Source: Pedobacter sp. (GTDB lineage: Bacteria > Bacteroidota > Bacteroidia > Sphingobacteriales > Sphingobacteriaceae). Taken from it: a stretch of DNA of 64,000 nucleotides. Positions 7,805 to 59,171 of the stretch are shown here, piece after piece. Positions within the stretch are counted from its first letter, which is position 1. Every line of letters starts with the position of its first letter. The notes below the pieces were generated by a model that was given only the letters and a program-made list of their open reading frames with translations, had not been told where the DNA came from and searched no databases. Location: the NCBI GenBank assembly GCA_036677005.1, contig JAKFBV010000069.1, positions 3,147 through 67,146 of the forward strand, given 5' to 3'. A program made the translations under genes and the position numbers.

Positions 7805-7826
7805 AGTCCTGCCAGAACCAATCTGC

Positions 7827-8432: not shown

Positions 8433-8433
8433 G

Positions 8434-9771: not shown

Positions 9772-9776
9772 GGTGT

Positions 9777-9784
9777 CAAAAATA
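9777..9784 (-). promoter_or_regulatory. -7 box TATTTTTG, 5 nt upstream of the tilS ATG
   Basis: Plus strand CAAAAATA. Confidence 0.4.
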
Positions 9785-9812
9785 TTTAATTAAAAATCCT
9801 TAGCCAAAAAAC

Positions 9813-9820
9813 TATTTTTG
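9813..9820 (+). promoter_or_regulatory. -7 box TATTTTTG, 4 nt upstream of the GTG start at 9825
   Basis: Matches TAnnTTTG; divergent from the tilS promoter. Confidence 0.4.
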
Positions 9821-9824
9821 CAAG

Positions 9825-11885: not shown

Positions 11886-12457
11886 ATACGGGTTTTCAGG
11901 AAATTGATCAGCTTCCTGATCGCAATAGCCCGGTGACTGATCCTGTTTTTCTCTGCCGGGTCCATTTCTGCAAAGCTGATATCGTACCCATCAGGTTTGA
12001 AAATAGGATCATAACCAAAGCCCCTGCTGCCTGAGGGCTGTCTGGTAATGGCACCTTCAACGCTTCCCTCAAAGAGATATTCTTTTCCACCCAGCAGCAG
12101 TGATATTACGGTCTTAAACCGTGCCTTACGGTCGCTCTTTGCAGCCAGGCGGTCGAGTACAAGCTGCATATTCTTTTCAAAATCACGGCTGCCTGAGTAC
12201 CAGGCCGAATGAACTCCCGGCTCAGCATTTAAGGCATCTATTTCAAGGCCTGAGTCATCGGCGAAACAATCGCAATGATAGCGCTCATAAACATACCTGC
12301 TCTTTTGCCCTGCATTTTCGGCAAAGGTATTTCCTGTTTCGGGGATCTCATCAAAGCATCCAATATCGTTCAGGCTTTTCAGGATAATATCTTTCCCGAT
12401 CATTTCCTGTATCTCTTCCACTTTGTGCTGATTATTACTTGCGAATACCAGTTCCAT
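11882..12457 (-). CDS. rdgB: non-canonical purine NTP pyrophosphatase (dITP/XTP)
   Basis: FASNNQHK...GFGYDPIF...ISHR are HAM1/RdgB motifs. Confidence 0.92.
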   Translation of the reverse strand: MELVFASNNQHKVEEIQEMIGKDIILKSLNDIGCFDEIPETGNTFAENAGQKSRYVYERYHCDCFADDSGLEIDALNAEPGVHSAWYSGSRDFEKNMQLVLDRLAAKSDRKARFKTVISLLLGGKEYLFEGSVEGAITRQPSGSRGFGYDPIFKPDGYDISFAEMDPAEKNRISHRAIAIRKLINFLKTRI

Positions 12458-12458
12458 A

Positions 12459-12992
12459 CTAAAATCCTTTCATCACATTCCAGAACTCTCTTTTTTTAGC
12501 AATATCAGTGTTCATTTCTTCCAAACTGAAAGTGGGTAAAACCCTGACATCCATATACTTCCCAACCTGGTTGGCTCCAATTGCCGGTAATTCAATTCTT
12601 TTAGGATCAATGCCGAATAATGCTGCCCTGCTGCAACTGAAAAAATCTTTCAGTTCGCTGAATTGCAGTCCCGGGTATTGGGCTATATTAAGTATGGCCA
12701 GGTCACGTAATTCAAGGCCTTTTGCCGACATGATCTTAAGCAGCGTTTCTTTATCCTGGCTGCTTATTTCTTTGCGGGTATGATCGTCAAACAGGATAAG
12801 AAAGTATTTGTTGTTTTCGCCGATATAGGAAAACCCGTTGGTTTTTACCGTTTCAGCAGGTTTTTGAATGGGATCAGCCTCCTGCTTTTCAGGTATAATT
12901 TCTGCTGCTTTTTTCTGTTCAGGCAAAATATAAAGATCCTCCGTCATTAATAGCCTGAGTGCATTGGGGTCACGTGTAAGTAGGTTTGACAT
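12459..12992 (-). CDS. conserved hypothetical protein (possible DNA polymerase III psi-like fold)
   Basis: 177-aa ORF 1 nt upstream of rdgB. Its layout resembles HolD from memory only. Confidence 0.7.
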   Translation of the reverse strand: MSNLLTRDPNALRLLMTEDLYILPEQKKAAEIIPEKQEADPIQKPAETVKTNGFSYIGENNKYFLILFDDHTRKEISSQDKETLLKIMSAKGLELRDLAILNIAQYPGLQFSELKDFFSCSRAALFGIDPKRIELPAIGANQVGKYMDVRVLPTFSLEEMNTDIAKKREFWNVMKGF

Positions 12993-13025
12993 TCGTATAA
13001 TTGTTTATTCCTGAGGTGCTTGCTG

Positions 13026-13033
13026 CAAACTTA
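13026..13033 (-). promoter_or_regulatory. -7 box TAAGTTTG upstream of the 12992 operon
   Basis: Plus strand CAAACTTA, 34 nt from the ATG. Confidence 0.4.
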
Positions 13034-13326
13034 ACAAAGCATCTGTTAAAATTAGTTAAATGGGTTCAGCTTCTTTTTCAAAAGGTTAACTTAGCCCTCA
13101 TCCGGAAAACCCGGATTATACAGGCTGAATAGCTTAAGCGTAACAATTCCGTTCGGGCCATAAATGCTGTTCAGGAATGCTTAATTTAGGATATTGCTGC
13201 AATTTCAATTCAGTATGAATAGTTCAAAAACATGCAATAAAGAGTTAAATGCCGGATTTATTTTTTAAAATGCAGGCTTAGCCAAAACCTATTTATTTAA
13301 ATAATTGAATTATGGATTTTATCTGA

Positions 13327-13334
13327 TAATTTTG
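13327..13334 (+). promoter_or_regulatory. -7 box TAATTTTG upstream of the SurA-like gene
   Basis: Matches TAnnTTTG, 118 nt before the ATG at 13452. Confidence 0.3.
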
Positions 13335-13451
13335 CAGAATTCAATTTTTAAAGAAGCTCTTTCAGGGGCTTATGTTTTTTATAGAGATTGGATCAAAAAC
13401 ACAATGAAATTTTGCAGATCAATTCTGCATTAAATAAGAGAACTACAAGAA

Positions 13452-14810
13452 ATGAGAAAGACCTTAGGGATATTAACCGGACTGCTTTTTATTACCCTCG
13501 TCCAGGTAAGTGCACAGAAGAAATCCCTAGATAAAGTTGCCGCGGTGGTTGGAAGTTCGATCATTTTACAATCAGAAATTGAATTACAGTACGCACAATA
13601 CCTGGCACAGGGCAATACTGCCAATCCCGATGTGAAATGCAGTATTTTACAAGGATTGCTTTCGCAGAAGATCCTTGGTCAGCAGGCTATTATCGACTCT
13701 GTTACTGTGACCGATGATCAGATCGACAGTGAGATCGAAAGGCGCTTACGTGCTATGACAGGCCGTGCAGGAGGACAGGAACGTCTGGAACAATTCCTTG
13801 GCCGTTCATTGATCCAGTATAAGGATGAGATCAGGCCCGATATACGGGAAATGCTGGTGGCTCAAAAGATGCAGGCCAAGATTACCGAGAATATAGCCGT
13901 TACACCTCTGGAGGTAAAGCGTTATTTTGATGCGATACCAAAAGACAGTCTGCCATTTTTTAATACCGAGGTGGAAATTGCTGAGATCGTAGTCTATCCA
14001 AAACTTAATAAGCTTGAAAAGGAGGCTTTTCATGATAAAGCAGAGGCTTTACGCCTGAGGATCAAGGGCGGTGAAGATTTTGCCACCCTGGCAAAATTGT
14101 ACTCTCAGGATCCTGGTTCTGCCCGTGATGGCGGAGATCTGGGATTTATGGACCGCGGGAGTTTGGTAAAGGAGTTTGCTGCAACAGCATTTAAACTGAA
14201 GGCGGGCGAACTTTCATCCGTTATTGAAACAGAATTCGGGTTCCATGTGCTGCAGCTTATTGAACGGCGCGGTGAGCAGGTGAATGTGAGGCATATCCTG
14301 ATCAAAACAGAATCTACTCCAGCAAGTATGCAGCGGGCAAAAGCACATATTGATAGTGTTTATCAGCAGGTAATGGAAAAGAAAATAGACTTTGGGGCAG
14401 CAGCCTCCCTCTATTCTGATAATAAGGATACGAAATATAACGGCGGGATGATGTTGAACGCTGAGAATGTTCAGAGTCGCACCACGTATATTCCAACTGA
14501 TAAACTGGACCCGCAAATATTTCTTACCGTTGATACCATGAAGGTGGGCTCTATTTCAAAACCTTCTATTTTTACAGGAGCAGACGGAAAGCAGGGGTAT
14601 CGCTTTTTAACTCTTAAATCGAAGACAGGTCCTCATCAGGCCAGCCTGGCAGTTGATTATCCGAAGATTAAGGAAGTTGCTTTTGAAGATAAAAATAACC
14701 GAACGATCAGCGAATGGTTTGAAAAGCGCAGAAAAATTACTTTTATTAAAATTGACGCCGAATTCCAAACCTGTCCTGAACTGGCGGGCTGGACCACAGC
14801 AAAAAATTGA
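13452..14810 (+). CDS. SurA-like peptidyl-prolyl isomerase (parvulin/PpiC domain)
   Basis: Signal peptide, a SurA N-terminal-like region and the rotamase core GGDLGFM...FGFHVLQ. Confidence 0.88.
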   Translation: MRKTLGILTGLLFITLVQVSAQKKSLDKVAAVVGSSIILQSEIELQYAQYLAQGNTANPDVKCSILQGLLSQKILGQQAIIDSVTVTDDQIDSEIERRLRAMTGRAGGQERLEQFLGRSLIQYKDEIRPDIREMLVAQKMQAKITENIAVTPLEVKRYFDAIPKDSLPFFNTEVEIAEIVVYPKLNKLEKEAFHDKAEALRLRIKGGEDFATLAKLYSQDPGSARDGGDLGFMDRGSLVKEFAATAFKLKAGELSSVIETEFGFHVLQLIERRGEQVNVRHILIKTESTPASMQRAKAHIDSVYQQVMEKKIDFGAAASLYSDNKDTKYNGGMMLNAENVQSRTTYIPTDKLDPQIFLTVDTMKVGSISKPSIFTGADGKQGYRFLTLKSKTGPHQASLAVDYPKIKEVAFEDKNNRTISEWFEKRRKITFIKIDAEFQTCPELAGWTTAKN

Positions 14811-14814
14811 TCAG

Positions 14815-15780
14815 ATGAAAACCTACAGTACTGATGTGGAGGCCGTTGATGCTTTGCACCTGTCATATAAAATGATAAGGGAGGAAATTGCACAGATCAT
14901 CGTCGGCCAGGATGACGTAGTAAAATCAGTGCTTATTTCAATTTTCAGTAATGGTCATTGCCTGCTGGTAGGTGTACCGGGATTAGCAAAAACATTGCTG
15001 GTTCAAACCGTTGCACAGGTTCTGGATCTGAGCTATAACCGGATTCAGTTTACGCCCGATCTGATGCCTTCGGATATTATCGGATCGGAAATTCTTGGAG
15101 AGGACCGGACATTTAAATTTATCCGCGGACCGGTATTCTCAAATATTATCCTGGCCGATGAAATCAACCGGACCCCGCCGAAAACCCAGGCTGCCCTCTT
15201 AGAGGCCATGCAGGAAAAAATGGTTACAGTTGGCGGACAGACCCATCACCTGCCAAAACCATTTTTCGTACTGGCTACACAAAATCCTATTGAACAGGAA
15301 GGCACTTATCCCTTACCTGAAGCACAGCTTGACCGTTTTATGTTCAATGTCTTCCTGACCTATCCATCATTCGAAGAAGAGCTGCAGGTGGTTAGAAATA
15401 CTACTGCCAATCGTAGTGTAGAACTGAAGAAAATATTGAATGCTGCTGAGATCAGCTACTTTCAGCAGCTTGTGAGAAATATACCTATTACAGATAATGT
15501 TCTTGAATATGCCGTTTCACTGGCAGCTAAGACACGTCCCGGCACCGCATCCGCAACAGATGAGGTAAATAAGTTTTTAAGCTGGGGAGCCGGGCCGAGG
15601 GCATCCCAGTTTCTAGTGCTCGGTGCAAAGTGTCATGCAGCGATCTCTGGTAAATACTCCCCGGATAAGGAAGATGTTCAGGCAGTGGCCGAATCCATTT
15701 TAAGGCACCGGATCGTGCGGAATTATAAAGCTGAAGCAGAAGGAATAAGCACAGAAAAACTGATCAGTAACCTGCTTTAA
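14815..15780 (+). CDS. MoxR-family AAA+ ATPase
   Basis: GVPGLAKT (Walker A), ILADEINR (Walker B) and the rest of the sequence is MoxR-like. Start taken at MKTYST. Confidence 0.92.
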   Translation: MKTYSTDVEAVDALHLSYKMIREEIAQIIVGQDDVVKSVLISIFSNGHCLLVGVPGLAKTLLVQTVAQVLDLSYNRIQFTPDLMPSDIIGSEILGEDRTFKFIRGPVFSNIILADEINRTPPKTQAALLEAMQEKMVTVGGQTHHLPKPFFVLATQNPIEQEGTYPLPEAQLDRFMFNVFLTYPSFEEELQVVRNTTANRSVELKKILNAAEISYFQQLVRNIPITDNVLEYAVSLAAKTRPGTASATDEVNKFLSWGAGPRASQFLVLGAKCHAAISGKYSPDKEDVQAVAESILRHRIVRNYKAEAEGISTEKLISNLL

Positions 15781-48364: not shown

Positions 48365-49081
48365 TTATATTTGTAATTGATAATATGCTGTACCTGCACA
48401 AAGAACAGTTATAGCAGCAGCGCAATATCCCCCCCAAGCCATACAAAATAAGCCTGAAGCAGCGCCACTAAATGTACCATCTGTAAAATGCATGCCAACT
48501 TTTGTTACACATGCAACCCATCTTGAACCAAAATTTCCTGGTTTCATCTGAATTTGCTCATGTATAACAGCGGCAGTTAAAATGCCATTAACCACCGTAA
48601 AACGAGCTAATTCACTACCTTCCGAATCTAAATATTTTGTAACAAGTGCATCATTCTCGCTTGTTAACGTGGCGTAGAAATTTTCACCATTAATAACACT
48701 CCCATTTTCAACCAGATTCATGTATTGATACTGTGTACCCTCATAAATTCCTAAATTTACAACAATTGTACTTAAAGGATTGTTTTCATAAGTAATGATG
48801 ACAGGAGGCTCACCTTCTCCATCAATAGGCACTGGATTCAAGACCATTTGTTTTTCTATTTTAAGTTTCCTTTCAAATGGACTCTTCATTAAACCTAAAG
48901 ATATAGATTCTAGAAGTTTTTTATCCGTAACTTTTTCAACTGATTTGACTTTTGGTGCAACAAATTCAATCATGGCTTTGGAATTGGTTAGCTGCACTGG
49001 TTGATCCTTGCATGAAAATAATGTAAGACTAAATAGGCTTAAATAGCTTAATTTAAGCAGCTGTGAATTTTTGTTTTTCAT
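48365..49081 (-). CDS. hypothetical lipoprotein with a Gly/Ala/Cys-rich hydrophobic C-terminus (cassette gene 1)
   Basis: Lipobox LTLFSC and C-terminal FSGAASGLFCMAWGGYCAAAITVLCAGTAYY. Confidence 0.7.
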   Translation of the reverse strand: MKNKNSQLLKLSYLSLFSLTLFSCKDQPVQLTNSKAMIEFVAPKVKSVEKVTDKKLLESISLGLMKSPFERKLKIEKQMVLNPVPIDGEGEPPVIITYENNPLSTIVVNLGIYEGTQYQYMNLVENGSVINGENFYATLTSENDALVTKYLDSEGSELARFTVVNGILTAAVIHEQIQMKPGNFGSRWVACVTKVGMHFTDGTFSGAASGLFCMAWGGYCAAAITVLCAGTAYYQLQI

Positions 49082-49431
49082 ATAATTGGTTTTTAGTTAT
49101 ATTTCTTATACGTTTTTTGTAAAAAAAACGTTACGATTGTTTTATCAATCGTTTGATAGGTTGGCTTTGGAGTAAATAAGCCGATATTAGACTTGAGTAA
49201 ACTTCAATCCCAAACCCTGCTTGCCCGAGCGTGTAGTGGCTGTTGCACAACTCACATCTGTAGCTCCTGCCTTTGCTCTAAACGACTTTGAACACCTAGT
49301 ATTCCTACCCCGCTGCTATAATCAGCAAATTATTTTAGAAGTATTTTACAGGGGAAATACATTCATTATTTTTCCTTTGGATAAATAAATGCAAAATTTT
49401 TAATAGGTTTATTTACCAATCCCTTAAGTGT

Positions 49432-51087
49432 ATGCAAACGCCAGATTATATTGTATTTTTTATCTATTTCCTCATTGTAAGTACCTATGGATGGTATGTT
49501 TACAGGCGTAAGAAGCACGAAAATTCAAAAGATTATTTCCTGGCAAAGGATTCATTAACCTGGTGGGCTATCGGAGCCTCATTGATCGCTTCCAATATTT
49601 CTGCAGAGCAGTTTATCGGAATGAGCGGTTCGGGCTTTACCATGGGACTTGCCATAGCAGCTTATGAATGGCTTGCTGCTGTTACCTTATTGATCGTGGC
49701 TGTATTTTTCATTCCAATTTATCTCAAGAATAAGATCTATACCATGCCTCAGTTTCTTAAAACGAGGTATAATGAAACGGTAGCCATGATCATGGCTGTT
49801 TTCTGGCTTTTATTGTATGTTGTTGTTAACCTGACCTCTATACTCTTTCTTGGAGCCTTGGCAATCAGCAGTATTTCGGGACTGGATTTCGGACTTTGTA
49901 TGATTGCATTGGCTGTATTTGCCGTTATAATCACCCTTGGGGGGATGAATGTGATCGGCTATACCGATGTGATCCAGGTGGTGTTCCTTGTTCTGGGCGG
50001 ACTGGTAACCACTTACCTGGCACTGGATATGGTGGCCCAGCATTACGGATCAGCAGGAGCGATCAATGGTTTCAACCTGATGACAGAGAATTCTGCCGAT
50101 CATTTTAAAATGATATTTAAAAAGGATGACCCTTATTTCATGGACCTGCCCGGACTTGCCGTGCTGGTCGGAGGTATGTGGATAGTCAACCTGAATTACT
50201 GGGGATGTAATCAGTACATCACCCAGAGAGCCCTGGGTGCAGATCTGCATACTGCCCGCAGCGGAATCCTCTTTGCGGCTTTCATTAAATTATTGATGCC
50301 GCTTATTGTTGTTCTGCCGGGAATAGCTGCATTTGTATTGTATAAAGAGGGGGTTTTCAGTACGGAAATGACACTGAATGGTGAAGTGGTCGGCGACCGC
50401 GCCTATCCGGTCCTGCTGAACCTTTTGCCTGTGGGTTTAAAAGGCTTATCATTCGCCGCCCTGACTGCTGCGGTAGTGGCATCCCTTGCCGGGAAGGCAA
50501 ACAGTATTGCCACTATTTTCACCCTTGACATTTATAAGAAGAAAATAAACCCGGCTGCGGGTGAGCACAAACAGGTGCAGGTTGGGCGATGGGTTATTGT
50601 AATATCCATGATCATGGCCGTGGCCATTGCACCTTATCTGGGCATTGATAAAAAAGGAGGGTTTCAGTATATTCAGGAATATACAGGTTTCGTTTCACCG
50701 GGAATATTTGCTATGTTCCTGCTTGGATTTTTCTGGAAAAAGACCACTTCAAATGCAGCCTTATTTGCTACGATCGGCGGCTTCATTTTATCCGTTTTAT
50801 TCAAGGCCTCACCCAATTATGTGGATCTCGAATTCCTTTATTCTTTTGGTTTTGCCGTACCGAATGCAGAAGGAGTTTACGAAATCCCATTTATCGACCG
50901 TATGGGATTTGTATTTCTGATCTGTGTGTTCGTCATGTTCCTGATCAGTATGTATGAGAACCGTAATGGAGTTATCCCCAATGGGCTGGAAGTGGATAAG
51001 AGCATGTTCCGGACTTCCGCATCCTTTGCGGTTGGAGCATTGATCGTTCTGGGGATAATTGTGGCACTATATAGTATATACTGGTAG
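49432..51087 (+). CDS. sodium:solute symporter (SSS/SGLT family)
   Basis: About 13 TM helices with an SGLT-like N-terminal region (FLAKDSLTWWAIGASLIASNISAEQFIGMSG). Confidence 0.9.
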   Translation: MQTPDYIVFFIYFLIVSTYGWYVYRRKKHENSKDYFLAKDSLTWWAIGASLIASNISAEQFIGMSGSGFTMGLAIAAYEWLAAVTLLIVAVFFIPIYLKNKIYTMPQFLKTRYNETVAMIMAVFWLLLYVVVNLTSILFLGALAISSISGLDFGLCMIALAVFAVIITLGGMNVIGYTDVIQVVFLVLGGLVTTYLALDMVAQHYGSAGAINGFNLMTENSADHFKMIFKKDDPYFMDLPGLAVLVGGMWIVNLNYWGCNQYITQRALGADLHTARSGILFAAFIKLLMPLIVVLPGIAAFVLYKEGVFSTEMTLNGEVVGDRAYPVLLNLLPVGLKGLSFAALTAAVVASLAGKANSIATIFTLDIYKKKINPAAGEHKQVQVGRWVIVISMIMAVAIAPYLGIDKKGGFQYIQEYTGFVSPGIFAMFLLGFFWKKTTSNAALFATIGGFILSVLFKASPNYVDLEFLYSFGFAVPNAEGVYEIPFIDRMGFVFLICVFVMFLISMYENRNGVIPNGLEVDKSMFRTSASFAVGALIVLGIIVALYSIYW

Positions 51088-51125
51088 ATGATTATGGGTC
51101 ATCTTTATTTTCAATAAATTTCCTG

Positions 51126-52100
51126 ATGAGGCTTGATACGATTGAAGAGGTAAAAAAATATCTTATTGAACAAGGCATTGTCCATGAAGATTCAGAACCC
51201 ATTGTAGAACATCTTTCCGGCGGGGTATCATGCAGGGTATGGAAAATCAGCGTGGATCAGGATCGCTGGGTCATCAAACAGGCGCTTGAGAAACTTAATG
51301 TTAAAGCAGACTGGTTTTCTGATGTTGAGCGCATTCATCGTGAACATGAGGTGATGAAACAATTGGAACTGATCCTTCCTGATTGTCATGTACCGAAGGT
51401 ATTGCATGTTGATTATGTTAATCACATCTACCTGATGACCTGCGCCGAAGAAGGAGTTCAGACCTGGAAAGATCTGTTGATGCAGGGTATATTCAATGCG
51501 GATACAGCCAAAAGTGCCGCAGATATTCTTACCCGGATCCACAGCCAGAGCTTTAAAATTGATGAAAAGATAAAGGCGGGCTTTAGTGATCAGAAATATT
51601 TTATTCAGCTGCGCATTGATCCCTTCCACCGCTTTTTAATTCAAAAATATCCGGAGCTTTCGGCTGAGATCAATGGTTTGATAGAAGAACTGACCGGACA
51701 AAAGATCTGCCTGGTTCATGGGGATTTTTCTCCAAAGAACATGCTCGTTGAAAAGAGCGGGAGTATCGTTTTAATTGATTATGAGGTGGCGCATTGGGGA
51801 AATCCTGTTTTTGACCTGGCTTATTGTTTGGGTCATCTGATGTTAAAAGCCTGGCATCTGAAAAAACCGGATGAGATGCTTGAGCTGATCGGCGTGTTCC
51901 TTGCCAATTATAAAGGACAGGTCAATAATCTTTTGCCGCACCTGGGCTTGATGCTTCTGGCCCGGGTGGATGGGAAATCGCCGGTGAATTACATTGAGGA
52001 TGAAAATTTAAAACAAATTATCAGGGATACAGCCATTAACTGGATCAAAGGGAAGAACCTGGGTTTGAATGTTTTTGAGGCCATCAAAAAGCAATTTTAA
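51126..52100 (+). CDS. APH-fold kinase, methylthioribose-kinase (MtnK)-like
   Basis: VIKQAL.KL.V...W, HGDFSPKNMLV and IDYEVAHWGNPVFDLAY parallel the MtnK/APH catalytic motifs (comparison from memory). Confidence 0.8.
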   Translation: MRLDTIEEVKKYLIEQGIVHEDSEPIVEHLSGGVSCRVWKISVDQDRWVIKQALEKLNVKADWFSDVERIHREHEVMKQLELILPDCHVPKVLHVDYVNHIYLMTCAEEGVQTWKDLLMQGIFNADTAKSAADILTRIHSQSFKIDEKIKAGFSDQKYFIQLRIDPFHRFLIQKYPELSAEINGLIEELTGQKICLVHGDFSPKNMLVEKSGSIVLIDYEVAHWGNPVFDLAYCLGHLMLKAWHLKKPDEMLELIGVFLANYKGQVNNLLPHLGLMLLARVDGKSPVNYIEDENLKQIIRDTAINWIKGKNLGLNVFEAIKKQF

Positions 52101-52179
52101 GTTCAGATCTTTTAATATTTTTAATCACACAAATACTCCGTTTACCATTCGGGATCATCTCCCTCAATATTAAAATAAC

Positions 52180-53481
52180 ATGTCAAAAATAAGAGATATA
52201 AAAGCAAGGGAAATTTTCGATTCACGCGGTAATCCTACCGTTGAGGTTGATGTATTTCTGGAATCGGGTGTTATGGGAAGAATGATGGTGCCTTCAGGGG
52301 CATCTACCGGGCAGTTTGAAGCATTGGAGTTACGTGATGGCGGAAATCGTCACAGAGGTAAAGGAGTGAGGAAAGCTGTTGCGAATGTTAACTCGGATAT
52401 CAGAAATGTTTTGATCGGTCAGGATATCGGGGATCAGGATCGGCTGGATAATCTGATGATCGAACTGGATGGCACTCCCGAAAAATCCAGGCTGGGTGCG
52501 AATGCCATACTCGGCGCTTCATTCGCCTGTATTCATGCCGCTGCCAATGAAGCAGCTGAACCTTTATTCAGATATCTGGCTAAGAAATATCTTCCTGCCG
52601 GAGATGAGGTTTCGATGCCTGTACCCATGGTAAATATCATCAGCGGTGGATTGCATGCGGGAAAGAATATTGATCTGCAGGATTTTCTGATCATACCCGT
52701 ATCGCCCAAAAACTATCCGGATGCACTCGAAATGATCTATAATGTGTACTGGAAAACACGCGAATTACTCATAAAAAAAGGATATAACGCCTATCTGCTT
52801 GCTGATGAGGGGGGGTTCGGACCTGCTTTACCTTCGAATGAGGCAGCTCTTGAGGTTTTGGGAGAAGTATTTCATGCATGCGGTTACAAACCGCGTACTG
52901 ATATTGCAATCGCACTTGATGTCGCCTCCTCCCATTTCTATGATGAAGCTAAAGGAGTATATCACCTGCATTCAGAAGAGCGTTCGCTTAACTCTGAACA
53001 GATGATCGGTATGCTCGAAAAGTGGTGCAGGGAATATCCGGTGATCTCAATTGAGGATGGTCTTGCAGAAAATGATTGGGAGGGATGGCAGATTTTGACA
53101 GAAAGGCTTGGTAAACATATTCAGCTGATCGGCGATGATCTCTTTACAACGAATAAGCTGCGATTACAGAAAGGGTTTGATATGAAGGCCGGAAACTCAA
53201 TCCTTGTGAAAATGAATCAGATCGGGACACTGACCGAGACTGTTAACACACTCCGGATGGCAAAGAATGGAGGCTTCAGCACGGTGGTTTCTGCCCGTTC
53301 GGGTGAAACGGAAGATGCTACCCTGGCAGACCTCGCTGTAGGGTTGAACGGCGGACAGATCAAAATCGGCTCGGTGGCCGGATCTTCAAGACTTGCCAAA
53401 TACAATCAGTTGCTCAGGATCAATGAGGAGATCGGCCAGAATTATGCGGGGAGCGCTACTTTCAGTTCATTTGGTATATAA
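52180..53481 (+). CDS. enolase-family protein, divergent paralog (QEF to QDF and SHRSGETED to SARSGETED)
   Basis: Full-length enolase fold with SGASTG, DEGGF, SIEDG, GDDL, KMNQIGT and GQIKIG conserved, but two catalytic-site residues replaced. Confidence 0.88.
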   Translation: MSKIRDIKAREIFDSRGNPTVEVDVFLESGVMGRMMVPSGASTGQFEALELRDGGNRHRGKGVRKAVANVNSDIRNVLIGQDIGDQDRLDNLMIELDGTPEKSRLGANAILGASFACIHAAANEAAEPLFRYLAKKYLPAGDEVSMPVPMVNIISGGLHAGKNIDLQDFLIIPVSPKNYPDALEMIYNVYWKTRELLIKKGYNAYLLADEGGFGPALPSNEAALEVLGEVFHACGYKPRTDIAIALDVASSHFYDEAKGVYHLHSEERSLNSEQMIGMLEKWCREYPVISIEDGLAENDWEGWQILTERLGKHIQLIGDDLFTTNKLRLQKGFDMKAGNSILVKMNQIGTLTETVNTLRMAKNGGFSTVVSARSGETEDATLADLAVGLNGGQIKIGSVAGSSRLAKYNQLLRINEEIGQNYAGSATFSSFGI

Positions 53482-53489
53482 TCACAAAT

Positions 53490-54440
53490 ATGGAACGTAG
53501 AAAATTCATTACTCTGGGAGCAACAGCCGCTATTGCTGGCATTGCATTACCTGGTATTGCAGTGGGTGGTACAGCAGAAGTCCGGAAGAAAGAGAAAAGG
53601 TACCAGAAAGGCCGGAGTCCCTGGCCGGTGTGCCTGGATACTGCCACCATCAGGCCGGCTTCCTTAATAGAAAAGGTCAGGATCGCAGCTAATGCCGGTT
53701 ATGATGCAATCGAACCATGGGATGGGGAATTGCAAAAGTTCGAAGCAGAGGGTGGTAATCTGAAAGACCTGGGTAAAGAAATAAAAGATAAGGGTTTGTT
53801 TGTCCCCAGCGTGATCGGGCTTTGGAATGCGATACCCCCTACCCGGGAATTATGGGAAAAATCACTCGCAGATACACGTAACCGGATGCGTATGGCTTCA
53901 GATATTGGTGCTCAGCATATACAAACAATCCCGAATACTATCGGAGAAAATTATAATCAAAAGTGGGCCGCAGATCGCTACAGGGACATTATTGAAATGG
54001 GCATCAATGAGTATAAATTGAACCCGGCACTGGTTTTTGTAAAATATTTTCCCATTAAAACGATGGGGCAGGCCGCGGGTATTGCCCTGGATGCCAGCCA
54101 TCCCAAAGCAAAGATCATTCCTGATGTTTACCACATGTATATCAGTGAAGGAGGCTTTGAAGGAATTAAATTGCTTAGAGGTGAGATGATCGCTATTTTT
54201 CAGTTTAATGACGCTCCTGCTTCACCGCCATTAGCACAGCTTAAGGATGAGCACAGGGTGTATCCCGGTGATGGTATTTTGCCTCTGACTCAAATCTTCA
54301 AAGATCTGAAGGGAACCGGGTATAAGGGCTGTATCTCACTTGAGATGTATAATCCGGTCTATTGGAAGGAAGATCTGATGATGGTGGCAGAAACCGGACT
54401 CAGAAAAACATTGGAAGTTCTTCAAAAGGCTGATGTATAG
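53490..54440 (+). CDS. TAT-exported xylose-isomerase-like TIM-barrel protein (sugar phosphate isomerase/epimerase family)
   Basis: Twin-arginine signal MERRKFITLGATAAIAG followed by an AP_endonuc_2-like barrel. Confidence 0.85.
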   Translation: MERRKFITLGATAAIAGIALPGIAVGGTAEVRKKEKRYQKGRSPWPVCLDTATIRPASLIEKVRIAANAGYDAIEPWDGELQKFEAEGGNLKDLGKEIKDKGLFVPSVIGLWNAIPPTRELWEKSLADTRNRMRMASDIGAQHIQTIPNTIGENYNQKWAADRYRDIIEMGINEYKLNPALVFVKYFPIKTMGQAAGIALDASHPKAKIIPDVYHMYISEGGFEGIKLLRGEMIAIFQFNDAPASPPLAQLKDEHRVYPGDGILPLTQIFKDLKGTGYKGCISLEMYNPVYWKEDLMMVAETGLRKTLEVLQKADV

Positions 54441-54490
54441 GTTGGTACTTGTTTAAGCAACAATATAGAAGGTGACCGATTAATAAAAAG

Positions 54491-54521
54491 GGTCAGGATG
54501 TAGATATATTCTGACCTTTTT
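54491..54521 (+). terminator. intrinsic terminator ending the plus-strand operon
   Basis: GGTCAG-N14-CTGACC followed by TTTTT. Confidence 0.7.
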
Positions 54522-54620
54522 ATTTACGGGTTTTGACTATTAAAAACTCAAAGGAAATTAAAAATAGGAATTTTGGCGTTTTAACACGCTGTCCGCTGTA
54601 TCTTTTTGGCCTCAAAAAGC

Positions 54621-54648
54621 CAAAAAGCCTGCCTGACGGTAGGCAGGG
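54621..54648 (-). terminator. intrinsic terminator ending the minus-strand operon
   Basis: On the minus strand, CCTGCCT-ACCGTC-AGGCAGG is followed by CTTTTTG. Confidence 0.7.
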
Positions 54649-54735
54649 ATGCCGCTGCCATCGTTAACGCAGCCGGTACACTAAATATCTGCCTGTGCAA
54701 GATATAGCTGGAAAATCATAATCGAACTCAGTTTA

Positions 54736-55290
54736 TTAATCAACGTACGCAATACAATCAATTTGTAAAAGAATACCGTCTCTGCCCATTAAATCGGTCC
54801 CGCATCCGGTATAAGAACGTACCGGAGCCGGGTCAGGGAAATACCCTCTGTAAGCTTCATTCAGGGCAGCAATGTTTTTATTGGGTTCAGCTACAGTCAT
54901 GTGTACTTTAAGAACATTGGCCATTGATGATCCGGCTCCTTCGAGCACCTCTTTCATGGTATCCAGTGCGCTTCGGATCTGCACCTGAATATCTCCGGGT
55001 TCTTTGCGTCTTTCAGCATACCAGCCTCCGATACCCGAAAGGAATAAGAGATGTCCGGAGCGGATACACCCGGATAAAACCCCTCCCGGTCTTGGCGCTC
55101 CGCCTGCTGCAGGGGCAGCCACGGTAGGATTTGTATTGCCTCCGCTATTACTTCGGCGGATAACCTCCTTTTTTGGCGTCCACTGTCCCTTTTGCTTTTT
55201 GTTTTGGGCATTGGCTTCAGCTGGAATTGCTGCTGCTGCTCCTGCAAGTGGTAGGAGACTCAGACTTTTTAGAACCTTTCTGCGATCCAT
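54736..55290 (-). CDS. RidA/YjgF-family protein with a twin-arginine signal peptide
   Basis: MDRRKVLKSLSLLPLAGAAAA (TAT signal), then a RidA core (SGHLLFLSGIGG...PVRSY...IDCIAYV). Confidence 0.88.
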   Translation of the reverse strand: MDRRKVLKSLSLLPLAGAAAAIPAEANAQNKKQKGQWTPKKEVIRRSNSGGNTNPTVAAPAAGGAPRPGGVLSGCIRSGHLLFLSGIGGWYAERRKEPGDIQVQIRSALDTMKEVLEGAGSSMANVLKVHMTVAEPNKNIAALNEAYRGYFPDPAPVRSYTGCGTDLMGRDGILLQIDCIAYVD

Positions 55291-55324
55291 AAGATTGTTT
55301 TATTAAAATTAAAAATGAGTATAA

Positions 55325-55822
55325 TTAATCAACATAGGCGATACAGCTCACCTGACACAGAATACCATCCCTGCCCATCTGGCTGGTTTTAGATCCGCTG
55401 TATGAACGTACAGGTGGATTTTCAGGGAAAAATTCAGCATACGCTTCATTGAGCTTCGCCATATTCTTGTTTGGCTCCGCTACTGTCATCTGTATCTTCA
55501 GCACATTGGCCATAGATGATCCGGCACCTTCCAGAATTCCCTTCATGGTAGTCAGAACACTACGGATCTGAACCTGGATATCTCCCGGCTCAGCCCTCTG
55601 GTTGGCATACCAGCCGCCAATACCCCCAATGAACAATAAATGACCTGAACGAAGGCAGGAGCCTGCCGGTGTTTTGATCAGTTCTTTCTTTGGAAGCCAT
55701 TCTTCTGCAGCACCGGATGCCGGCTCTGAATCAGCTCCTGCATGATGCTTCGCAATAGCGGCAGTTGCAATTCCTGCCAGCGGAATGATGCTCAAGCCCC
55801 TTAGTATTTCTCTGCGTTTCAT
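55325..55822 (-). CDS. RidA/YjgF-family protein with a twin-arginine signal peptide (tandem paralog)
   Basis: MKRREILRGLSIIPLAG, then the same RidA core (SGHLLFIGGIGG...PVRSY...VSCIAYV). Confidence 0.88.
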   Translation of the reverse strand: MKRREILRGLSIIPLAGIATAAIAKHHAGADSEPASGAAEEWLPKKELIKTPAGSCLRSGHLLFIGGIGGWYANQRAEPGDIQVQIRSVLTTMKGILEGAGSSMANVLKIQMTVAEPNKNMAKLNEAYAEFFPENPPVRSYSGSKTSQMGRDGILCQVSCIAYVD

Positions 55823-55890
55823 TGATTTTATTTGTCTTTTACTAGGTCTAAATATAAATAAAAATGAAAGAAATAATTATCAGAACCCAA

Positions 55891-57273
55891 CTATTTTGAA
55901 TCCGGAATCGCAAGCCCAATCTCCCGCGCTAATTTTAAAACTTCCCCCATGATCCCTGGCTCGATCGATTCCTTCCATTTGGCCGGCAATCCGAAGGCCA
56001 TTTGGGAGGTATGGCCTTCATATCCGCCTTCCCTTAAAATTTCCACCGTTGGAATATAAGCCATCACATCATTGGAGTAGCCCATCACAAACAGCTCAGG
56101 ACCAAAGATCTTTTTAAGCTTGATCGCATAGTCCACAACAGGTTCACCACCCAGAGCCACTATCGACTGATCCCCCAACTGCCAGAACTGAACTGGATAG
56201 GGATAGCTGCGTAACATGGGCTCATCCTTTTCATATTTCCGGATCATTTCCAATGCCCAGTTCCTGATGTAACCGCTTTCTTTGGCAAGCATCTGGTTTA
56301 ACTCTTCCTTGCCGGGTGGGTTTTCAAATTCAATACTCACTTCTGAATAGGCGGTACTCAAACGCGGTTCCAGATCCCGCATTTCCCCTTCAAGCACAGC
56401 TTCCACTGCCAATGCGAGTTCCTGACCATATTGCTTTGCCAGTGGGATCGATTTGCGCGGCAATGCATTCTGGTTTCCACCGCAACCCTGGAAAAATAGT
56501 GCAGTGGCTCCGGGATGTGCTTTTTCTACCTGGATCTGTGCATATCCGGCATAATCTCCCGACCAGTCATAACCCTGCAATACTGTATTATGGCAGGCAT
56601 ATCCGAAAGCTATGGCCAAAACTTTCCCCTTTTTATCAGTCACCCTGATCACCGGTACTGCGTAATCACTCGGACCTTTCAGATCTGTTTGTGCATCTAT
56701 TTTTGTCTCAATATTATTCCTCCTGTTTACCGCAAAGCGGCTTATCCCGTTCTGACTTGAAATATTAACAGGTTTCATTGATTTTAAGGCCTTTTTGACC
56801 ATAGCCCCGATCTGATCTTCAAACTTGATGGTATAAGTCCTGATCTGTTCTTTTTGCTGTTCATTCAAGGGATATAAGGCCAGAAGAGCGTCCTGCAATA
56901 CCGGTCCGGAATGGGTATGAGAAGTGTTGAAAATGATCTGACTGCGTGAAAGCCGGAAACTTTTTTCAAGGCGGTTCCGGATAGCATCTGAAATGCTTTT
57001 TGGAATACCGGAGAGGTCGGTAGTGATGAGTACAGCCTTTTTGCCTGCCGCATCTTCGATCACCAGAGCTTTTGCCCAAAGCTCATGAAGTTTACCTTCC
57101 GATGGTTTGGTGCGATGTGCAAATCCGGCCATCCACATGGACTCTTCAGGAGTAATGATTACACTGGCAACTCCGGCTTTCCAGCCAGCCTGATTTTTAT
57201 CCTGTGCCGATGAATTTTGAACGGATAGAATAATAAAAGAAAAAAAAGTAATTAAAAGGATATTCTTTTTCAT
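55891..57273 (-). CDS. neutral/alkaline ceramidase-like exported amidase
   Basis: Signal peptide; WKAGVASVIITPEE...LWAKALVIED...FNTSHTHSGP matches the ceramidase N-terminal domain pattern. Start taken at MKKNILL. Confidence 0.85.
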   Translation of the reverse strand: MKKNILLITFFSFIILSVQNSSAQDKNQAGWKAGVASVIITPEESMWMAGFAHRTKPSEGKLHELWAKALVIEDAAGKKAVLITTDLSGIPKSISDAIRNRLEKSFRLSRSQIIFNTSHTHSGPVLQDALLALYPLNEQQKEQIRTYTIKFEDQIGAMVKKALKSMKPVNISSQNGISRFAVNRRNNIETKIDAQTDLKGPSDYAVPVIRVTDKKGKVLAIAFGYACHNTVLQGYDWSGDYAGYAQIQVEKAHPGATALFFQGCGGNQNALPRKSIPLAKQYGQELALAVEAVLEGEMRDLEPRLSTAYSEVSIEFENPPGKEELNQMLAKESGYIRNWALEMIRKYEKDEPMLRSYPYPVQFWQLGDQSIVALGGEPVVDYAIKLKKIFGPELFVMGYSNDVMAYIPTVEILREGGYEGHTSQMAFGLPAKWKESIEPGIMGEVLKLAREIGLAIPDSK

Positions 57274-57440
57274 ATGTATTAAAAACAGCTCTGCCGGTAT
57301 TGGCAAAAGCAATTTATTGATTTAATAAACACAGTGTCCGCTTAAATATTTTTTTTCTTCGGTTCCGAAGCTGTCCAGATGAGAATTACAAAACATGCGA
57401 CCACATTCGGGATCAGGCTTATCTGTCTTATTCGGGGGGC

Positions 57441-59171
57441 TTATTGAAGTACCTGCTTATACTTCAAAAGATCGGCTTCTAATTCTTTATATGGAACATC
57501 CTGTACTCTGTAATTCTTGTCGATAGCAATACTGGCGGCAATTGCTGCGGATTGTCCCAGTACCATAAATACCGGCTCCATACGGATGGATCCAAAGGCG
57601 ATATGAGTTGCAGACAAGCAGGCGGGAGCAAACAGATTGTTTACTTCTGATTTTTTAGGAACGATCGATCTGTAACTTATCGGATAAGGACCTGCAACAT
57701 GCGCTTCCACATTGCCTTCATTTTTTACAAAACCATTCACATCCACATAGCGTTTAATGTTGTGCGAGTCCATACCATAAGCACCCATTCCAACCGGATC
57801 TTCAGCCACTACCAGACGTTCGCAATTTTTTTGTGTCATCACATAATCACTGATCATACGCCTTGCTTCCCGGATGTATAATTGCCCCTGCCAGCCGTCT
57901 TCCCTTTCATATTCATCCTTGCAGGTGCCCCATGTAGAAACCACATCCCGTACTTTTTTAGGAATACGGGGATGATAGGCAAGGGTCCACATTAAACCCT
58001 GCTGATATTTCCGGTGTCGTTCAACAATCTTTTCGCGCTCTTCATAACCCGCTTCAGGGTAGTCATAATTCTGACCTATAAAATCAGTTGAGAATCCTTT
58101 CTGGTTATTGGTATCTGTTTTACGGTTAGGCATATCCGAATTTATCCAGGGTACTAATGGGTCGCCATAGTCATACATTTTTTCGATGGGACCTTCGGCG
58201 GCCTCGTAGTTTCTCATTAATAATTCATAGTCCAGTTCTTTATAACCTGCAGGTTTAGCAAATGGAATTCGGTTATCAGGATGGTTGGTCAAGGTCATGC
58301 GGAAGCAGTAGGTCTGTATTTTATTGTCGCCTTTTCCATCAATTCCCGGCTTTCCCGGAGAAATAAATGGCAGCAAACCGCTTTTAGGATCACCTTTTTT
58401 AATGTAGGGGTCTACACCTTCAATGAAATTATGATTATACGTATTCATTGAGATGGTTCTGCGCAGAGTCAGGCTAATTTTGTTTGCCTGAATACCGTTT
58501 AATGTTTCTCCATACTGAGTGTTGGATTCACGGCCAACAGTATAGCTTACACCGGCGGCTGCCATTAAATCCCCTTCATAGGTAGCATCAATAAACATTT
58601 TTCCCTGATAAACCTGCCCGCTTTCCATTTGAATGGATGTTATTTTTCCTGAAGCTTTTTTAACCCCGCTTTTACGGTTTAAACGCTGATTATAGACCAG
58701 GCTAATGTTTTTTTCCTTACTTAACATCTCCTGAAAGATCTTCAAAGCCGCCGATGGTTCAAAGGTCCACATGGCATCTTCCTGAGCTGCGCTGGTGGTC
58801 TGCCCGCCGTCCTTATAGCTTTCCCTTTTTTGCCAGATCCAGTTTTCAGGTTTTTGGTAATAGGCTTTTACCTGTTGATAGAATTCTCTGGATAAACCGC
58901 CGATTGCCTGTTTGTTGCCGATATCCGTCTGCCCGAGTCCGCCGGTTGTTAGTCCGCCGATTCTGTTAGTTGGCTCAATTAATATCACTTTTTTGCCCAT
59001 TCTCGAGCTTTGAATGGCTGAGCTGATACCGGTAGAGGTAGCGCCATAGACCACAATGTCGAATTGCTGAGCCGTCTGACTTAAAGCCGTCTGATTCCCC
59101 CAGCAAACTAGAATTGCAAGCAGAATACCGAATTTCTTAAAGGATTTCGCAGTAAAATTCATCTTATACAT
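57441..59171 (-). CDS. exported FAD-dependent oxidoreductase
   Basis: Signal peptide followed by a [17 protein letters not shown] Rossmann dinucleotide motif. The start may be Met4 (59162). Confidence 0.85.

What the first reader, a model, noticed from the sequence alone, without database searches (positions are those of the whole stretch)
52180..53481. Enolase paralog with two catalytic-site substitutions, embedded in a transporter-kinase operon
The protein is a full-length enolase. The substrate-lid SGASTG is conserved, as are the metal ligands in ALDVASS, SIEDG and GDDL. The base Lys in KMNQIGT, the acid Glu in DEGGF, and GQIKIG are also conserved. Two positions that are conserved in canonical enolases are changed, however. 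The QEF motif (Glu168 in yeast numbering) is QDF, and SHRSGETED (His373) is SARSGETED. I verified the numbering by counting along the yeast sequence from memory. Glu168 and His373 line the pocket around the C3 hydroxyl and the carboxylate of 2-phosphoglycerate. Together with the operon context (an SSS symporter and an MtnK-like kinase directly upstream), this suggests an enzyme acting on a different phospho-acid or phospho-sugar, rather than the glycolytic enolase. I therefore do not assign the symbol eno.
Basis: partly seen in the sequence, partly recalled or inferred. Interest (0 to 1): 0.6.

Follow-up and report, generated by a model that had tools for sequence, protein, structure and literature searches.

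The report
Kinase-coupled variant enolase paralog
This second enolase gene is not the glycolytic enzyme: it belongs to a large, unstudied branch of the enolase family with a remodelled substrate pocket and its own partner kinase. It probably turns a glycerate-like acid from sugar breakdown into phosphoenolpyruvate by a route not yet described.

Summary
Window 52180-53481(+) encodes a 433-aa enolase that keeps every metal, phosphate and acid/base residue but has Asp168 (QDF) and Ala372 (SARSGETED). The genome also has a canonical QEF/SHRSGETED enolase on another contig (51% identity).

Asp/Ala is not drift. All 58 enolases found next to a homologous MtnK-fold kinase, across many bacterial and archaeal phyla, carry Asp/Ala. 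All 108 sequences outside that branch that have the ordinary residue pair carry Glu/His. One well-supported tree branch (SH-aLRT 95) separates the two groups. The kinase gene directly precedes the enolase in 72 of 77 informative loci, and natural kinase-enolase fusions exist. Three further clade-specific changes (N155S, M170L, G208A) lie in the same active-site motifs.

Other neighbours vary. They are enriched for sugar-acid catabolism, and in Paenibacillaceae they form a complete 'Route III' oxidative sugar pathway whose leftover fragment would be glycerate.

The SSS symporter and the Tat-exported TIM barrel are specific to the window's genus and close relatives. The module occurs in 21 of 41 genomes of that genus but in only 8 of 401 sampled from the phylum.

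No paper or solved structure was found. This scan has flagged the same family on other DNA and reached the same reading. The substrate remains untested.

The parts
49432..51087 (+). Na+/solute symporter of the vSGLT type (551 aa), first gene of the local operon. It is linked to the module only in Daejeonella and other Sphingobacteriales.
   Evidence: Pfam SSF, E 4e-62. 482.6 bits to the Vibrio Na+/galactose transporter 2xq2. Found beside the kinase only in Sphingobacteriales loci L020-L029.
51126..52100 (+). MtnK-fold small-molecule kinase of the APH family (324 aa), the universal partner of the variant enolase.
   Evidence: Pfam APH, 65.3 bits. Only a weak N-terminal match to TIGR01767 MTRK. 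The AF2 model has pLDDT 95 and its best PDB matches are MTR kinases, TM 0.76-0.82 at 15-18% identity. Orthologues of 32-83% identity sit 5' of a D/A enolase in 72 of 77 informative loci. Invariant residues include K51, the HGDxSPKN catalytic loop, DxE, and several Arg/Lys (R69, K115, R163, K241, R280).
52180..53481 (+). Enolase paralog of the kinase-coupled Asp168/Ala372 family (433 aa). This is the finding itself.
   Evidence: The AF2 model has pLDDT 91.9.
52642..52689 (+). Active-site loop segment carrying three clade-specific changes (Ser155, Asp168, Leu170) next to the conserved His159 and Gln167.
   Evidence: Column profiles of 98 D/A sequences against 108 E/H sequences: N155S (89% vs 94%), E168D (100% vs 100%), M170L (86% vs 81%). 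Codons checked.
52801..52809 (+). Ala208-Asp209-Glu210. There is a clade-specific Gly-to-Ala change two residues before the conserved catalytic acid (yeast Glu211).
   Evidence: G208A: Ala in 88% of D/A sequences, Gly in 100% of E/H sequences. Glu210 is kept in 99%.
53293..53301 (+). Ala372-Arg373-Ser374. The His of SHRSGETED is replaced by Ala, while the phosphate-binding Arg and Ser are kept.
   Evidence: Ala in 100% of D/A sequences, His in 100% of E/H sequences. Arg and Ser are 100% conserved in the D/A family.
53490..54440 (+). Tat-exported xylose-isomerase-like TIM-barrel protein (316 aa), last gene of the local operon (8-nt gap). It is genus-level context, not part of the universal module.
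   Evidence: Pfam AP_endonuc_2, 92.7 bits. The N-terminus MERRKFITLGATAAIAG is a twin-arginine signal. The nearest solved relative is IolI 1i60, 49 bits. It is found beside the module in Daejeonella and other Sphingobacteriales loci and is missing in L029.

Best explanation
The kinase (51126-52100) and the Asp168/Ala372 enolase paralog (52180-53481) form an accessory two-step catabolic module.

Step 1 (inferred): the MtnK-fold kinase uses ATP to phosphorylate the 2-hydroxyl of a glycerate-type 2,3-dihydroxy acid. This acid is the small leftover fragment of oxidative, non-phosphorylative sugar or sugar-acid breakdown.

Step 2 (inferred): the enolase paralog binds the 2-phospho-acid through the conserved two-Mg2+, Arg and Ser site. 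It removes the alpha-proton with the conserved Lys344 and eliminates the C3 substituent with the conserved Glu210. The product is phosphoenolpyruvate or a close homologue, which enters central metabolism.

The remodelled C3-side pocket (N155S, E168D, M170L, G208A, H372A) means the intermediate is probably not handled as ordinary D-2-phosphoglycerate. It may be the other enantiomer, or a C3-modified or slightly larger analogue.

In this genome the module is probably co-transcribed with a vSGLT-like sugar importer and a periplasmic TIM-barrel enzyme.

Shown: paralogy, the clade signature, kinase coupling, fusions, retention of the catalytic core, and the gene contexts. Inferred: the substrate, the regiochemistry and the product.
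For: 1. A canonical enolase co-exists in this genome and in all five distant module-bearing genomes tested, including a 1.5-Mb Nanopelagicaceae genome and two archaea.
2. All 58 kinase-linked enolases carry Asp/Ala, and all 108 sequences with the canonical pair carry Glu/His. Every metal, phosphate and acid/base residue is at least 98% conserved in the D/A family.
3. One branch splits D/A from E/H: FastTree SH 79 with 97 of 98 D/A sequences on one side, and IQ-TREE LG+C20 SH-aLRT 95.
4. The kinase directly precedes the enolase in 72 of 77 loci from about 15 phyla, often with overlapping stop and start codons. Natural fusions exist: P0162, P0152 and P0172.
5. Flanking genes are heterogeneous (109 Pfam families in 128 genes), but the recurrent ones are MR_MLE and IlvD/Edd acid-sugar dehydratases, FAH hydrolases, SDRs, lactonases, D-2-hydroxyacid dehydrogenases, GntR/FCD regulators and sugar transporters.
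6. In Cohnella and Paenibacillus the pair sits inside GntR - MBL - KIN - ENO* - SDR - FAH - SDR - MR_MLE - DUF4432. This is the Route III scheme (dehydrogenase plus hydrolase giving pyruvate plus a 2-hydroxy acid) described in PMC6336799. I infer that a hexose taken through this route leaves glycerate.
7. Within the genus, module-bearing genomes carry more MR_MLE copies (about 8.6 against 3.3).
8. The kinase has many invariant Arg and Lys residues, which fits an anionic substrate.
Against: No enzyme of either family has been assayed, and no paper or solved structure was found.

In most loci the pair stands without informative neighbours, so the sugar-acid link rests on a minority of contexts.

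If the substrate is plain D-glycerate, the dedicated enolase is redundant. The genome already has a class-I glycerate kinase, as do 19 of 21 module-bearing genomes in the genus, and it has a canonical enolase.

The local transporter looks like a neutral-sugar importer, and the operon has no oxidising enzymes to turn a sugar into an acid.

In one congener (G006) the kinase is followed by a GNAT acetyltransferase instead of the enolase.

The genus-level correlations are not phylogenetically independent.
Confidence: 0.5

Rival explanations
1. This is a plain isoenzyme module. The kinase is a fourth, APH-fold class of D-glycerate 2-kinase, and the paralog is an ordinary 2-phospho-D-glycerate enolase. 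It is kept beside the kinase only for co-expression or flux. The Asp/Ala changes tune kinetics without changing the substrate.
For: The entire catalytic core is conserved. Contexts point to glycerate as the leftover fragment. D-2-hydroxyacid dehydrogenases (hydroxypyruvate-reductase-like) are neighbours in 8 loci. Paenibacillus locus L014 has a D-galactonate dehydratase equivalog (670 bits), which would lead to D-glycerate.
Against: Five active-site positions are fixed differently across Bacteria and Archaea, with no reversion to the canonical Glu/His pair in the D/A branch. From my recollection of the yeast mutagenesis literature, Glu168 is important for the dehydration step. D-2-PG equilibrates with the glycolytic pool, so a private enolase would be unnecessary. 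Classical glycerate kinase and canonical enolase co-occur with the module.
Confidence: 0.2
2. The paralog is a PEP-forming lyase for a 3-substituted 2-phospho-propanoate. Candidate substrates are 2-phospho-3-sulfolactate (releasing sulfite), 3-O-methyl-glycerate 2-phosphate or 3-sulfo-glycerate 2-phosphate. The enlarged C3 pocket would accommodate a bulkier leaving group than hydroxide.
For: The smaller residues on the C3 side (E168D, H372A, N155S) would make room. Paenibacillus locus L014 lies among sulfatase, porphyranase and GH2 genes, where 6-O-methyl or 6-sulfated galactose would leave such fragments. From memory, the chemistry is the reverse of phosphosulfolactate synthase.
Against: No sulfite exporter or oxidase, or other leaving-group-specific gene, recurs among 244 flanking genes. 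The module is widespread in habitats without an obvious common 3-substituted glycerate.
Confidence: 0.1
3. The paralog is not a dehydratase. It uses the conserved enolisation machinery for a 1,1-proton transfer (2-phospho-acid racemase or epimerase). The canonical enolase then finishes the job.
For: The two residues changed are those associated with the hydroxide-leaving half-reaction (from memory), while the proton-abstraction and enolate-stabilising residues are intact. The canonical enolase is always present.
Against: The general acid Glu210 is 99% conserved. No second base is gained on the opposite face. There is no precedent within the enolase subgroup.
Confidence: 0.05
4. The paralog is an inhibitor-resistant or moonlighting spare copy of enolase, unrelated to the kinase.
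For: Target duplication with active-site changes is a known self-resistance pattern (general knowledge).
Against: It is adjacent to one orthologous kinase family in 94% of loci across domains, and gene fusions exist. No biosynthetic clusters are nearby.
Confidence: 0.03

Closest known systems
Canonical enolase / phosphopyruvate hydratase (EC 4.2.1.11; TIGR01060; Pfam PF03952 + PF00113), e.g. B. subtilis 4a3r
   Same: Same two-domain fold (457 bits to 4a3r; AF2 pLDDT 91.9). Same Mg2+ ligands, Ser loop, His159, Gln167, catalytic Lys and Glu, Arg/Ser phosphate clamp and Lys395. It scores above the TIGR01060 cut-off, so databases name it enolase.
   Different: Glu168 is Asp and His373 is Ala, with further changes N155S, M170L, G208A and Thr/Ala396 to Ile/Val. 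It forms a separate clade. It is always a second copy. It is coupled or fused to a kinase. It is patchy and accessory: 8 of 401 genomes sampled from the phylum.
5-Methylthioribose kinase MtnK (TIGR01767; PDB 2pyw, 2pul, 2olc)
   Same: It is the closest solved fold to the partner kinase (TM 0.76-0.82). Same HGD...N catalytic loop and DxE metal motif. JGI sometimes labels family members 'MTR kinase'.
   Different: 15-18% identity. About 75-95 residues shorter than the listed chains. 47.7 bits against a cut-off of 275. No methionine-salvage genes were seen beside it. Its partner is an enolase, which has no role in that pathway.
Glycerate kinases of classes I-III (e.g. GlxK/GarK, PF02595)
   Same: Likely analogous role: ATP-dependent phosphorylation of glycerate at the end of sugar-acid pathways (inference).
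   Different: Unrelated fold. The window's kinase has no PF02595 hit. A class-I glycerate kinase exists separately in this genome at C77:30109-31215.
Route III non-phosphorylative sugar pathways (L-fucose, L-rhamnose, pentoses; PMC6336799)
   Same: In Cohnella and Paenibacillus the pair is embedded among the same enzyme types: SDR 4-dehydrogenase, FAH-family hydrolase, acid-sugar dehydratase and lactonase.
   Different: The described routes end in lactate or glycolate and contain neither a kinase nor an enolase. The module would add a new terminal branch for a glycerate-type product.

Membership tests
Canonical enolase (EC 4.2.1.11, TIGR01060) | Enolase_N plus Enolase_C TIM-barrel architecture, with a score above the family cut-off | tested here: met
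   PF03952 and PF00113. TIGR01060 561.7 bits against 300. AF2 pLDDT 91.9.
Canonical enolase (EC 4.2.1.11, TIGR01060) | Mg2+ ligands (yeast Asp246, Glu295, Asp320), Ser39 loop, and Arg374/Ser375 phosphate site | tested here: met
   D247, E292, D319, S42, R373 and S374 are present, and each is 100% conserved in the D/A clade.
Canonical enolase (EC 4.2.1.11, TIGR01060) | Catalytic base Lys345, acid Glu211 and carboxylate-binding Lys396 | tested here: met
   K344, E210 and K395 are 99-100% conserved.
Canonical enolase (EC 4.2.1.11, TIGR01060) | Glu168 (QEF) in the hydroxyl-side network | tested here: not met
   Asp168 here and in all 98 D/A clade sequences. Glu in all 108 sequences with the canonical pair.
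Canonical enolase (EC 4.2.1.11, TIGR01060) | His373 (SHRSGETED) | tested here: not met
   Ala372 here and in all 98 D/A clade sequences. His in all 108 sequences with the canonical pair.
Canonical enolase (EC 4.2.1.11, TIGR01060) | It is the organism's housekeeping glycolytic copy | tested here: not met
   A separate canonical copy lies at G000:C16. The paralog is present in 21 of 41 genus genomes and 8 of 401 genomes sampled from the phylum.
Canonical enolase (EC 4.2.1.11, TIGR01060) | Efficient interconversion of D-2-phosphoglycerate and PEP | not testable with these tools
   This needs an enzyme assay.
Kinase-coupled Asp168/Ala372 enolase family (uncharacterised; defined here and in earlier notes of this scan) | Asp at 168 and Ala at 372, with the catalytic core intact | tested here: met
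Kinase-coupled Asp168/Ala372 enolase family (uncharacterised; defined here and in earlier notes of this scan) | An orthologous MtnK-fold kinase immediately 5' on the same strand | tested here: met
   The window kinase is at 51126-52100, with a 79-nt gap. The same arrangement holds in 72 of 77 loci.
Kinase-coupled Asp168/Ala372 enolase family (uncharacterised; defined here and in earlier notes of this scan) | Falls on the D/A side of the tree bipartition | tested here: met
   SH-aLRT 95. The window sequence sits in a 99-supported subclade with Chitinophagaceae, Paenibacillaceae and Rhodothermales sequences.
MtnK, 5-methylthioribose kinase (TIGR01767), for the partner kinase | Score above the curated cut-off over the full length | tested here: not met
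   47.7 bits against 275; the best-scoring stretch covers residues 10-119 only.
MtnK, 5-methylthioribose kinase (TIGR01767), for the partner kinase | MtnK-type kinase fold | tested here: met
   Top Foldseek hits are 2pyw, 2pun, 2pul and 2olc, TM 0.76-0.82.
Class-I glycerate kinase (PF02595), for the partner kinase | Gly_kinase domain | tested here: not met
   Only APH-type Pfam hits. The genome's PF02595 gene lies elsewhere.

The most novel reading that the evidence does not exclude
The pair is an enantio-complementary end-route into glycolysis: an L-glycerate 2-kinase plus an L-2-phosphoglycerate dehydratase. This would be an enolase for the 'wrong' enantiomer, with the remodelled Glu168/His373 face allowing proton abstraction or hydroxide loss from the opposite side. 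It would close Route III-type oxidation of L-configured hexoses and of anhydro-L-galactose, which should leave L-glycerate that no known kinase or enolase handles. That would explain three things: why a private enolase is needed, why it co-exists with the classical glycerate kinase and enolase, and why it sits with FAH/SDR/MR_MLE genes and, in one Paenibacillus, with porphyran-degrading genes.
Probability: 0.2. Interest if true: 0.8.

Novelty: new variant of a known kind. Interest (0 to 1): 0.62.

Why it matters
As far as I recall, enolase proper is treated as essentially isofunctional, and annotation pipelines name every member 'phosphopyruvate hydratase'. Here a deep, monophyletic branch has a fixed five-residue remodelling of the substrate pocket and an obligate partner kinase. 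The kinase alone was found in at least 583 stretches of the species-genome collection, from Bacteroidota to Halobacteria and Nitrososphaerota.

If the pair converts a glycerate-type acid to PEP, it is a new kinase class and a new terminal branch of non-phosphorylative sugar catabolism. It would then correct many database annotations and metabolic reconstructions that count these genes as glycolytic enolase. If the substrate is L-glycerate or a 3-substituted analogue, it would be the first case known to me of changed substrate specificity or stereochemistry in the enolase subgroup. The hypothesis can be tested directly with two easily expressed soluble proteins.

Tried and rejected
- Complex prediction on the kinase and the enolase, using alignments A1 and A4, returned 'no answer'. 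It gives no information either way.
- Seven literature searches found nothing on this pair. They covered enolase paralogs and homologues, APH-type glycerate kinase, L-2-phosphoglycerate, 2-phospho-aldonates and the enolase subgroup.
- The only L-2-phosphoglycerate hit, the CpgD cytidylyltransferase of Caulobacter, merely used the compound as a test substrate.
- I looked for a universal third partner gene. There is none: 109 and 97 different Pfam families occur among the +/-1 and +/-2 neighbours.
- I tested whether the module replaces a missing classical glycerate kinase. It does not. PF02595 is present in G000 and in 19 of 21 module-bearing genomes of the genus, against 8 of 20 genomes without the module.
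- PDB sequence searches found no solved member of either family.
- NCBIfam could not assign a substrate to the MR_MLE dehydratases next to the pair, except for L014, which is a galactonate dehydratase.
- I rejected F420/2-phospholactate, methionine-salvage and phosphate-scavenging readings. The taxonomic spread, the missing pathway genes, or the chemistry (no beta-hydroxyl, or a kinase that consumes ATP) do not fit.
- The promoter and terminator consensus scan of 48900-55400 gave counts at shuffle level and did not define the operon ends.
Full report
**Observation.** The ORF at window 52180-53481(+) encodes a 433-aa protein. It has Enolase_N and Enolase_C domains and scores 561.7 bits against NCBIfam TIGR01060 'eno', whose cut-off is 300. 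The two deviations are real: QDF has Asp168 (GAT, 52681-52683) and SARSGETED has Ala372 (GCC, 53293-53295). Upstream on the same strand lie an SSS symporter (49432-51087) and an APH-family kinase (51126-52100). Downstream, after 8 nt, lies a xylose-isomerase-like TIM barrel (53490-54440).

**Is it the only enolase?** No. The assembly (4.46 Mb, 140 contigs, 100% complete) has a second enolase at C16:23959-25212. It is 51% identical and has canonical QEF and SHRSGETED. In the window's genus (Daejeonella, judging by the titles of the nearest loci), all 24 sampled congeners have a canonical-type copy or, in two incomplete assemblies, only the paralog recovered. About half also carry the paralog at 82-92% identity. 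The kinase is found in 21 of 41 genus genomes, but in only 8 of 401 high-quality genomes sampled across the phylum. The module is therefore an accessory trait.

**A distinct family.**
- The 120 best database relatives of the paralog (58-91% identity) all read SARSGETED, and almost all read QDF by a simple pattern match. They include Chitinophagaceae, Ginsengibacter, Paenibacillus and Cohnella.
- In an alignment of 227 enolases, all 58 that sit next to the partner kinase have Asp/Ala. The 108 sequences with the ordinary pair have Glu/His, including the canonical copies of six module-bearing genomes.
- FastTree places 97 of 98 D/A sequences, plus seven odd variants and no E/H sequence, on one side of a branch.
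- IQ-TREE (LG+C20 PMSF, 75 rows) recovers the same split with SH-aLRT 95.
- Inside the family, the window's protein lies in a strongly supported subclade that mixes Bacteroidota, Rhodothermales and Paenibacillaceae, which indicates horizontal spread. Haloarchaeal sequences form their own clade.

**What changed and what did not.** I compared 98 non-redundant D/A sequences with 108 E/H sequences. Only five positions are conserved in both groups yet different: N155S, E168D, M170L, G208A (two residues before the catalytic Glu) and H372A. The residue after the carboxylate-binding Lys also shifts, from Thr/Ala to Ile/Val. All of these lie in the active-site loops. Everything needed to bind a 2-phospho-carboxylate with two Mg2+, to abstract its alpha-proton and to protonate a leaving group is 98-100% conserved: the Ser loop, His159, Gln167, Glu210, Asp247, Glu292, Asp319, Lys344, Arg373, Ser374 and Lys395. 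From established enolase mechanism (my knowledge, not tested here), Glu168 and His373 sit on the C3-hydroxyl side. The pattern thus argues for an active enzyme whose C3 side has been re-tooled. It does not fit a pseudo-enzyme, or a phospho-sugar enzyme.

**The kinase is the constant partner.**
- Five look-ups of paralogs from long contigs each showed an APH kinase immediately 5', often overlapping, while all other neighbours differed.
- Searching 185,579 species genomes with an alignment of these kinases gave at least 583 relatives. The best 80 loci span Bacteroidota, Rhodothermota, Firmicutes, Actinomycetota (including 1.5-Mb Nanopelagicaceae), Acidobacteriota, Planctomycetota, Chloroflexota, Atribacterota, Verrucomicrobiota, Armatimonadota, Halobacteria and Nitrososphaerota.
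- In 72 of the 77 loci with enough downstream sequence, an enolase homologue follows the kinase on the same strand. Every full-length one entered in the alignment has Asp/Ala.
- Among 50%-identity representatives there are natural kinase-enolase fusion proteins: P0162 (770 aa), P0152 (745 aa) and P0172.
- Five distant module-bearing genomes each also have a canonical SHRSGE/QEF enolase.
- The kinase models confidently (pLDDT 95). Its closest solved folds are 5-methylthioribose kinases (TM 0.76-0.82, 15-18% identity), followed by PsiK and lanthipeptide kinases. By sequence it is far below the MtnK cut-off and has no significant PDB relative.
- Several Arg and Lys residues are invariant across 30 diverse orthologues, which would suit an anionic substrate.

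**Context and likely substrate.** There is no universal third gene: the 244 flanking genes examined fall into about 100 Pfam families on each side. The recurrent families are MR_MLE acid-sugar dehydratases (adjacent in 7 loci and within a few genes in 12), IlvD/Edd dehydratases (L-arabinonate-dehydratase-like), FAH-family hydrolases, SDRs, NAD epimerases, lactonases, aldo-keto and GFO reductases, D-2-hydroxyacid dehydrogenases, alpha-L-fucosidases, GntR/FCD regulators and sugar transporters.

The clearest cases are in Paenibacillaceae:
- Cohnella nanjingensis has GntR - MBL hydrolase - kinase - enolase* - SDR - FAH - SDR - MR_MLE - DUF4432.
- A Paenibacillus adds a monosaccharide ABC transporter to the same set.
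- Another Paenibacillus places FAH - ADH - kinase - enolase* - galactonate dehydratase - ADH beside a sulfatase, a GH2 enzyme and a porphyranase-like protein.

These are the enzyme types of the non-phosphorylative 'Route III'. In that route a 2-keto-3-deoxy acid is oxidised and then hydrolysed to pyruvate plus lactate (from 6-deoxyhexoses) or glycolate (from pentoses) (PMC6336799). By extension, and this is my inference, a hexose would leave glycerate. Kinase plus enolase* would then be the missing steps to PEP. Within the genus, module-bearing genomes carry on average about 8.6 MR_MLE hits against 3.3 in the others. This comparison is not phylogenetically independent.

**Why not simply D-glycerate to D-2-PG to PEP?** That reading is possible and is my main rival (0.2). 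But the genome already has a class-I glycerate kinase (C77:30109-31215), and so do 19 of 21 module-bearing congeners. It also has a canonical enolase. In addition, D-2-PG equilibrates with glycolysis, so a private enolase with a fixed, remodelled pocket would not be needed. I therefore favour an intermediate that the canonical enzyme handles poorly. The most interesting candidate is L-2-phosphoglycerate. L-configured sugars dominate the known Route III pathways and would leave L-glycerate. Other candidates are 3-substituted or four-carbon analogues. None of this can be decided without assays.

**Local features.** The symporter is closely related to the Vibrio Na+/galactose transporter (482.6 bits), so it probably imports a neutral sugar. 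The TIM barrel carries a twin-arginine signal and is most similar to IolI. Both accompany the module only in Daejeonella and other Sphingobacteriales. The operon contains no sugar-oxidising enzymes, so the link between the imported compound and the kinase substrate is open. In one congener the kinase (63% identical) is followed by a GNAT acetyltransferase instead of the enolase and TIM barrel.

**Known or new?** I found no paper and no structure for either family. Sources name the proteins 'phosphopyruvate hydratase/enolase' and 'aminoglycoside phosphotransferase family' or 'MTR kinase'. Earlier notes of this scan describe the same kinase-coupled SARSGETED enolases in at least eleven other genomes, and three follow-up reports reached the same reading. 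I treat those as agreement, not as independent evidence. Everything cited above was re-derived here.

**Verdict.** The gene is a member of an uncharacterised, kinase-coupled enolase family, best described as a new variant of a known kind. The substrate is unknown but is most likely glycerate-like.

Noticed in passing
window 54736-59171 (- strand): A block of four exported proteins faces the operon. It holds two RidA/L-PSP-like proteins with twin-arginine signals (MDRRKVL..., MKRREIL...), a signal-peptide protein with a neutral-ceramidase N-terminal domain (473 aa) and a signal-peptide PF12831 FAD oxidoreductase (576 aa). The block is conserved next to the module in several Daejeonella and related loci. 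Periplasmic RidA proteins are unusual, and the function is unknown.
   Followed up: partly
L115 (G006:C1:37000-53000), ORFs 8149-9804, 7154-8143 and 6632-7150 (- strand): In one congener the same symporter and a 63%-identical kinase are followed by a GNAT acetyltransferase in place of the variant enolase and the TIM barrel. That genome has only the canonical enolase.
   Followed up: partly
proteins P0162 (770 aa), P0152 (745 aa), P0172 (595 aa): These are natural single-chain fusions of the partner kinase (N-terminal) and the variant enolase (C-terminal), found among metagenomic representatives. P0152 has Gly instead of Ala at the His373 position.
   Followed up: partly
window 48365-49081 (- strand): A 238-aa ORF lies between the asparaginase gene and the operon, with no Pfam or NCBIfam match. 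A 350-nt non-coding stretch follows it, upstream of the symporter.
   Followed up: no
G016:C50:30381-40740, G049:C58:5918-14321, G054:C135:23-7985 (not fetched): Several congeners carry tandem arrays of six or more MR_MLE (enolase-superfamily) paralogs of 450-540 aa. Module-bearing genomes have more MR_MLE copies overall.
   Followed up: no
L002 190-1290 and 1501-2793: The canonical enolase of this genome directly follows a 366-aa ORF that looks like the small (glutaminase) subunit of carbamoyl-phosphate synthase. I judged this by eye from a GATase-type motif and did not check it with a profile. An earlier scan note reports a similar carA-eno pairing in another genome.
   Followed up: no
L018 and L019, positions 1-104 and 9547-15169: In two uncultured Bacteroidota the kinase-enolase* pair lies 8 kb downstream of the canonical eno-ftsB genes. 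It is immediately followed by a phosphate porin and the pstSCAB-phoU genes.
   Followed up: no
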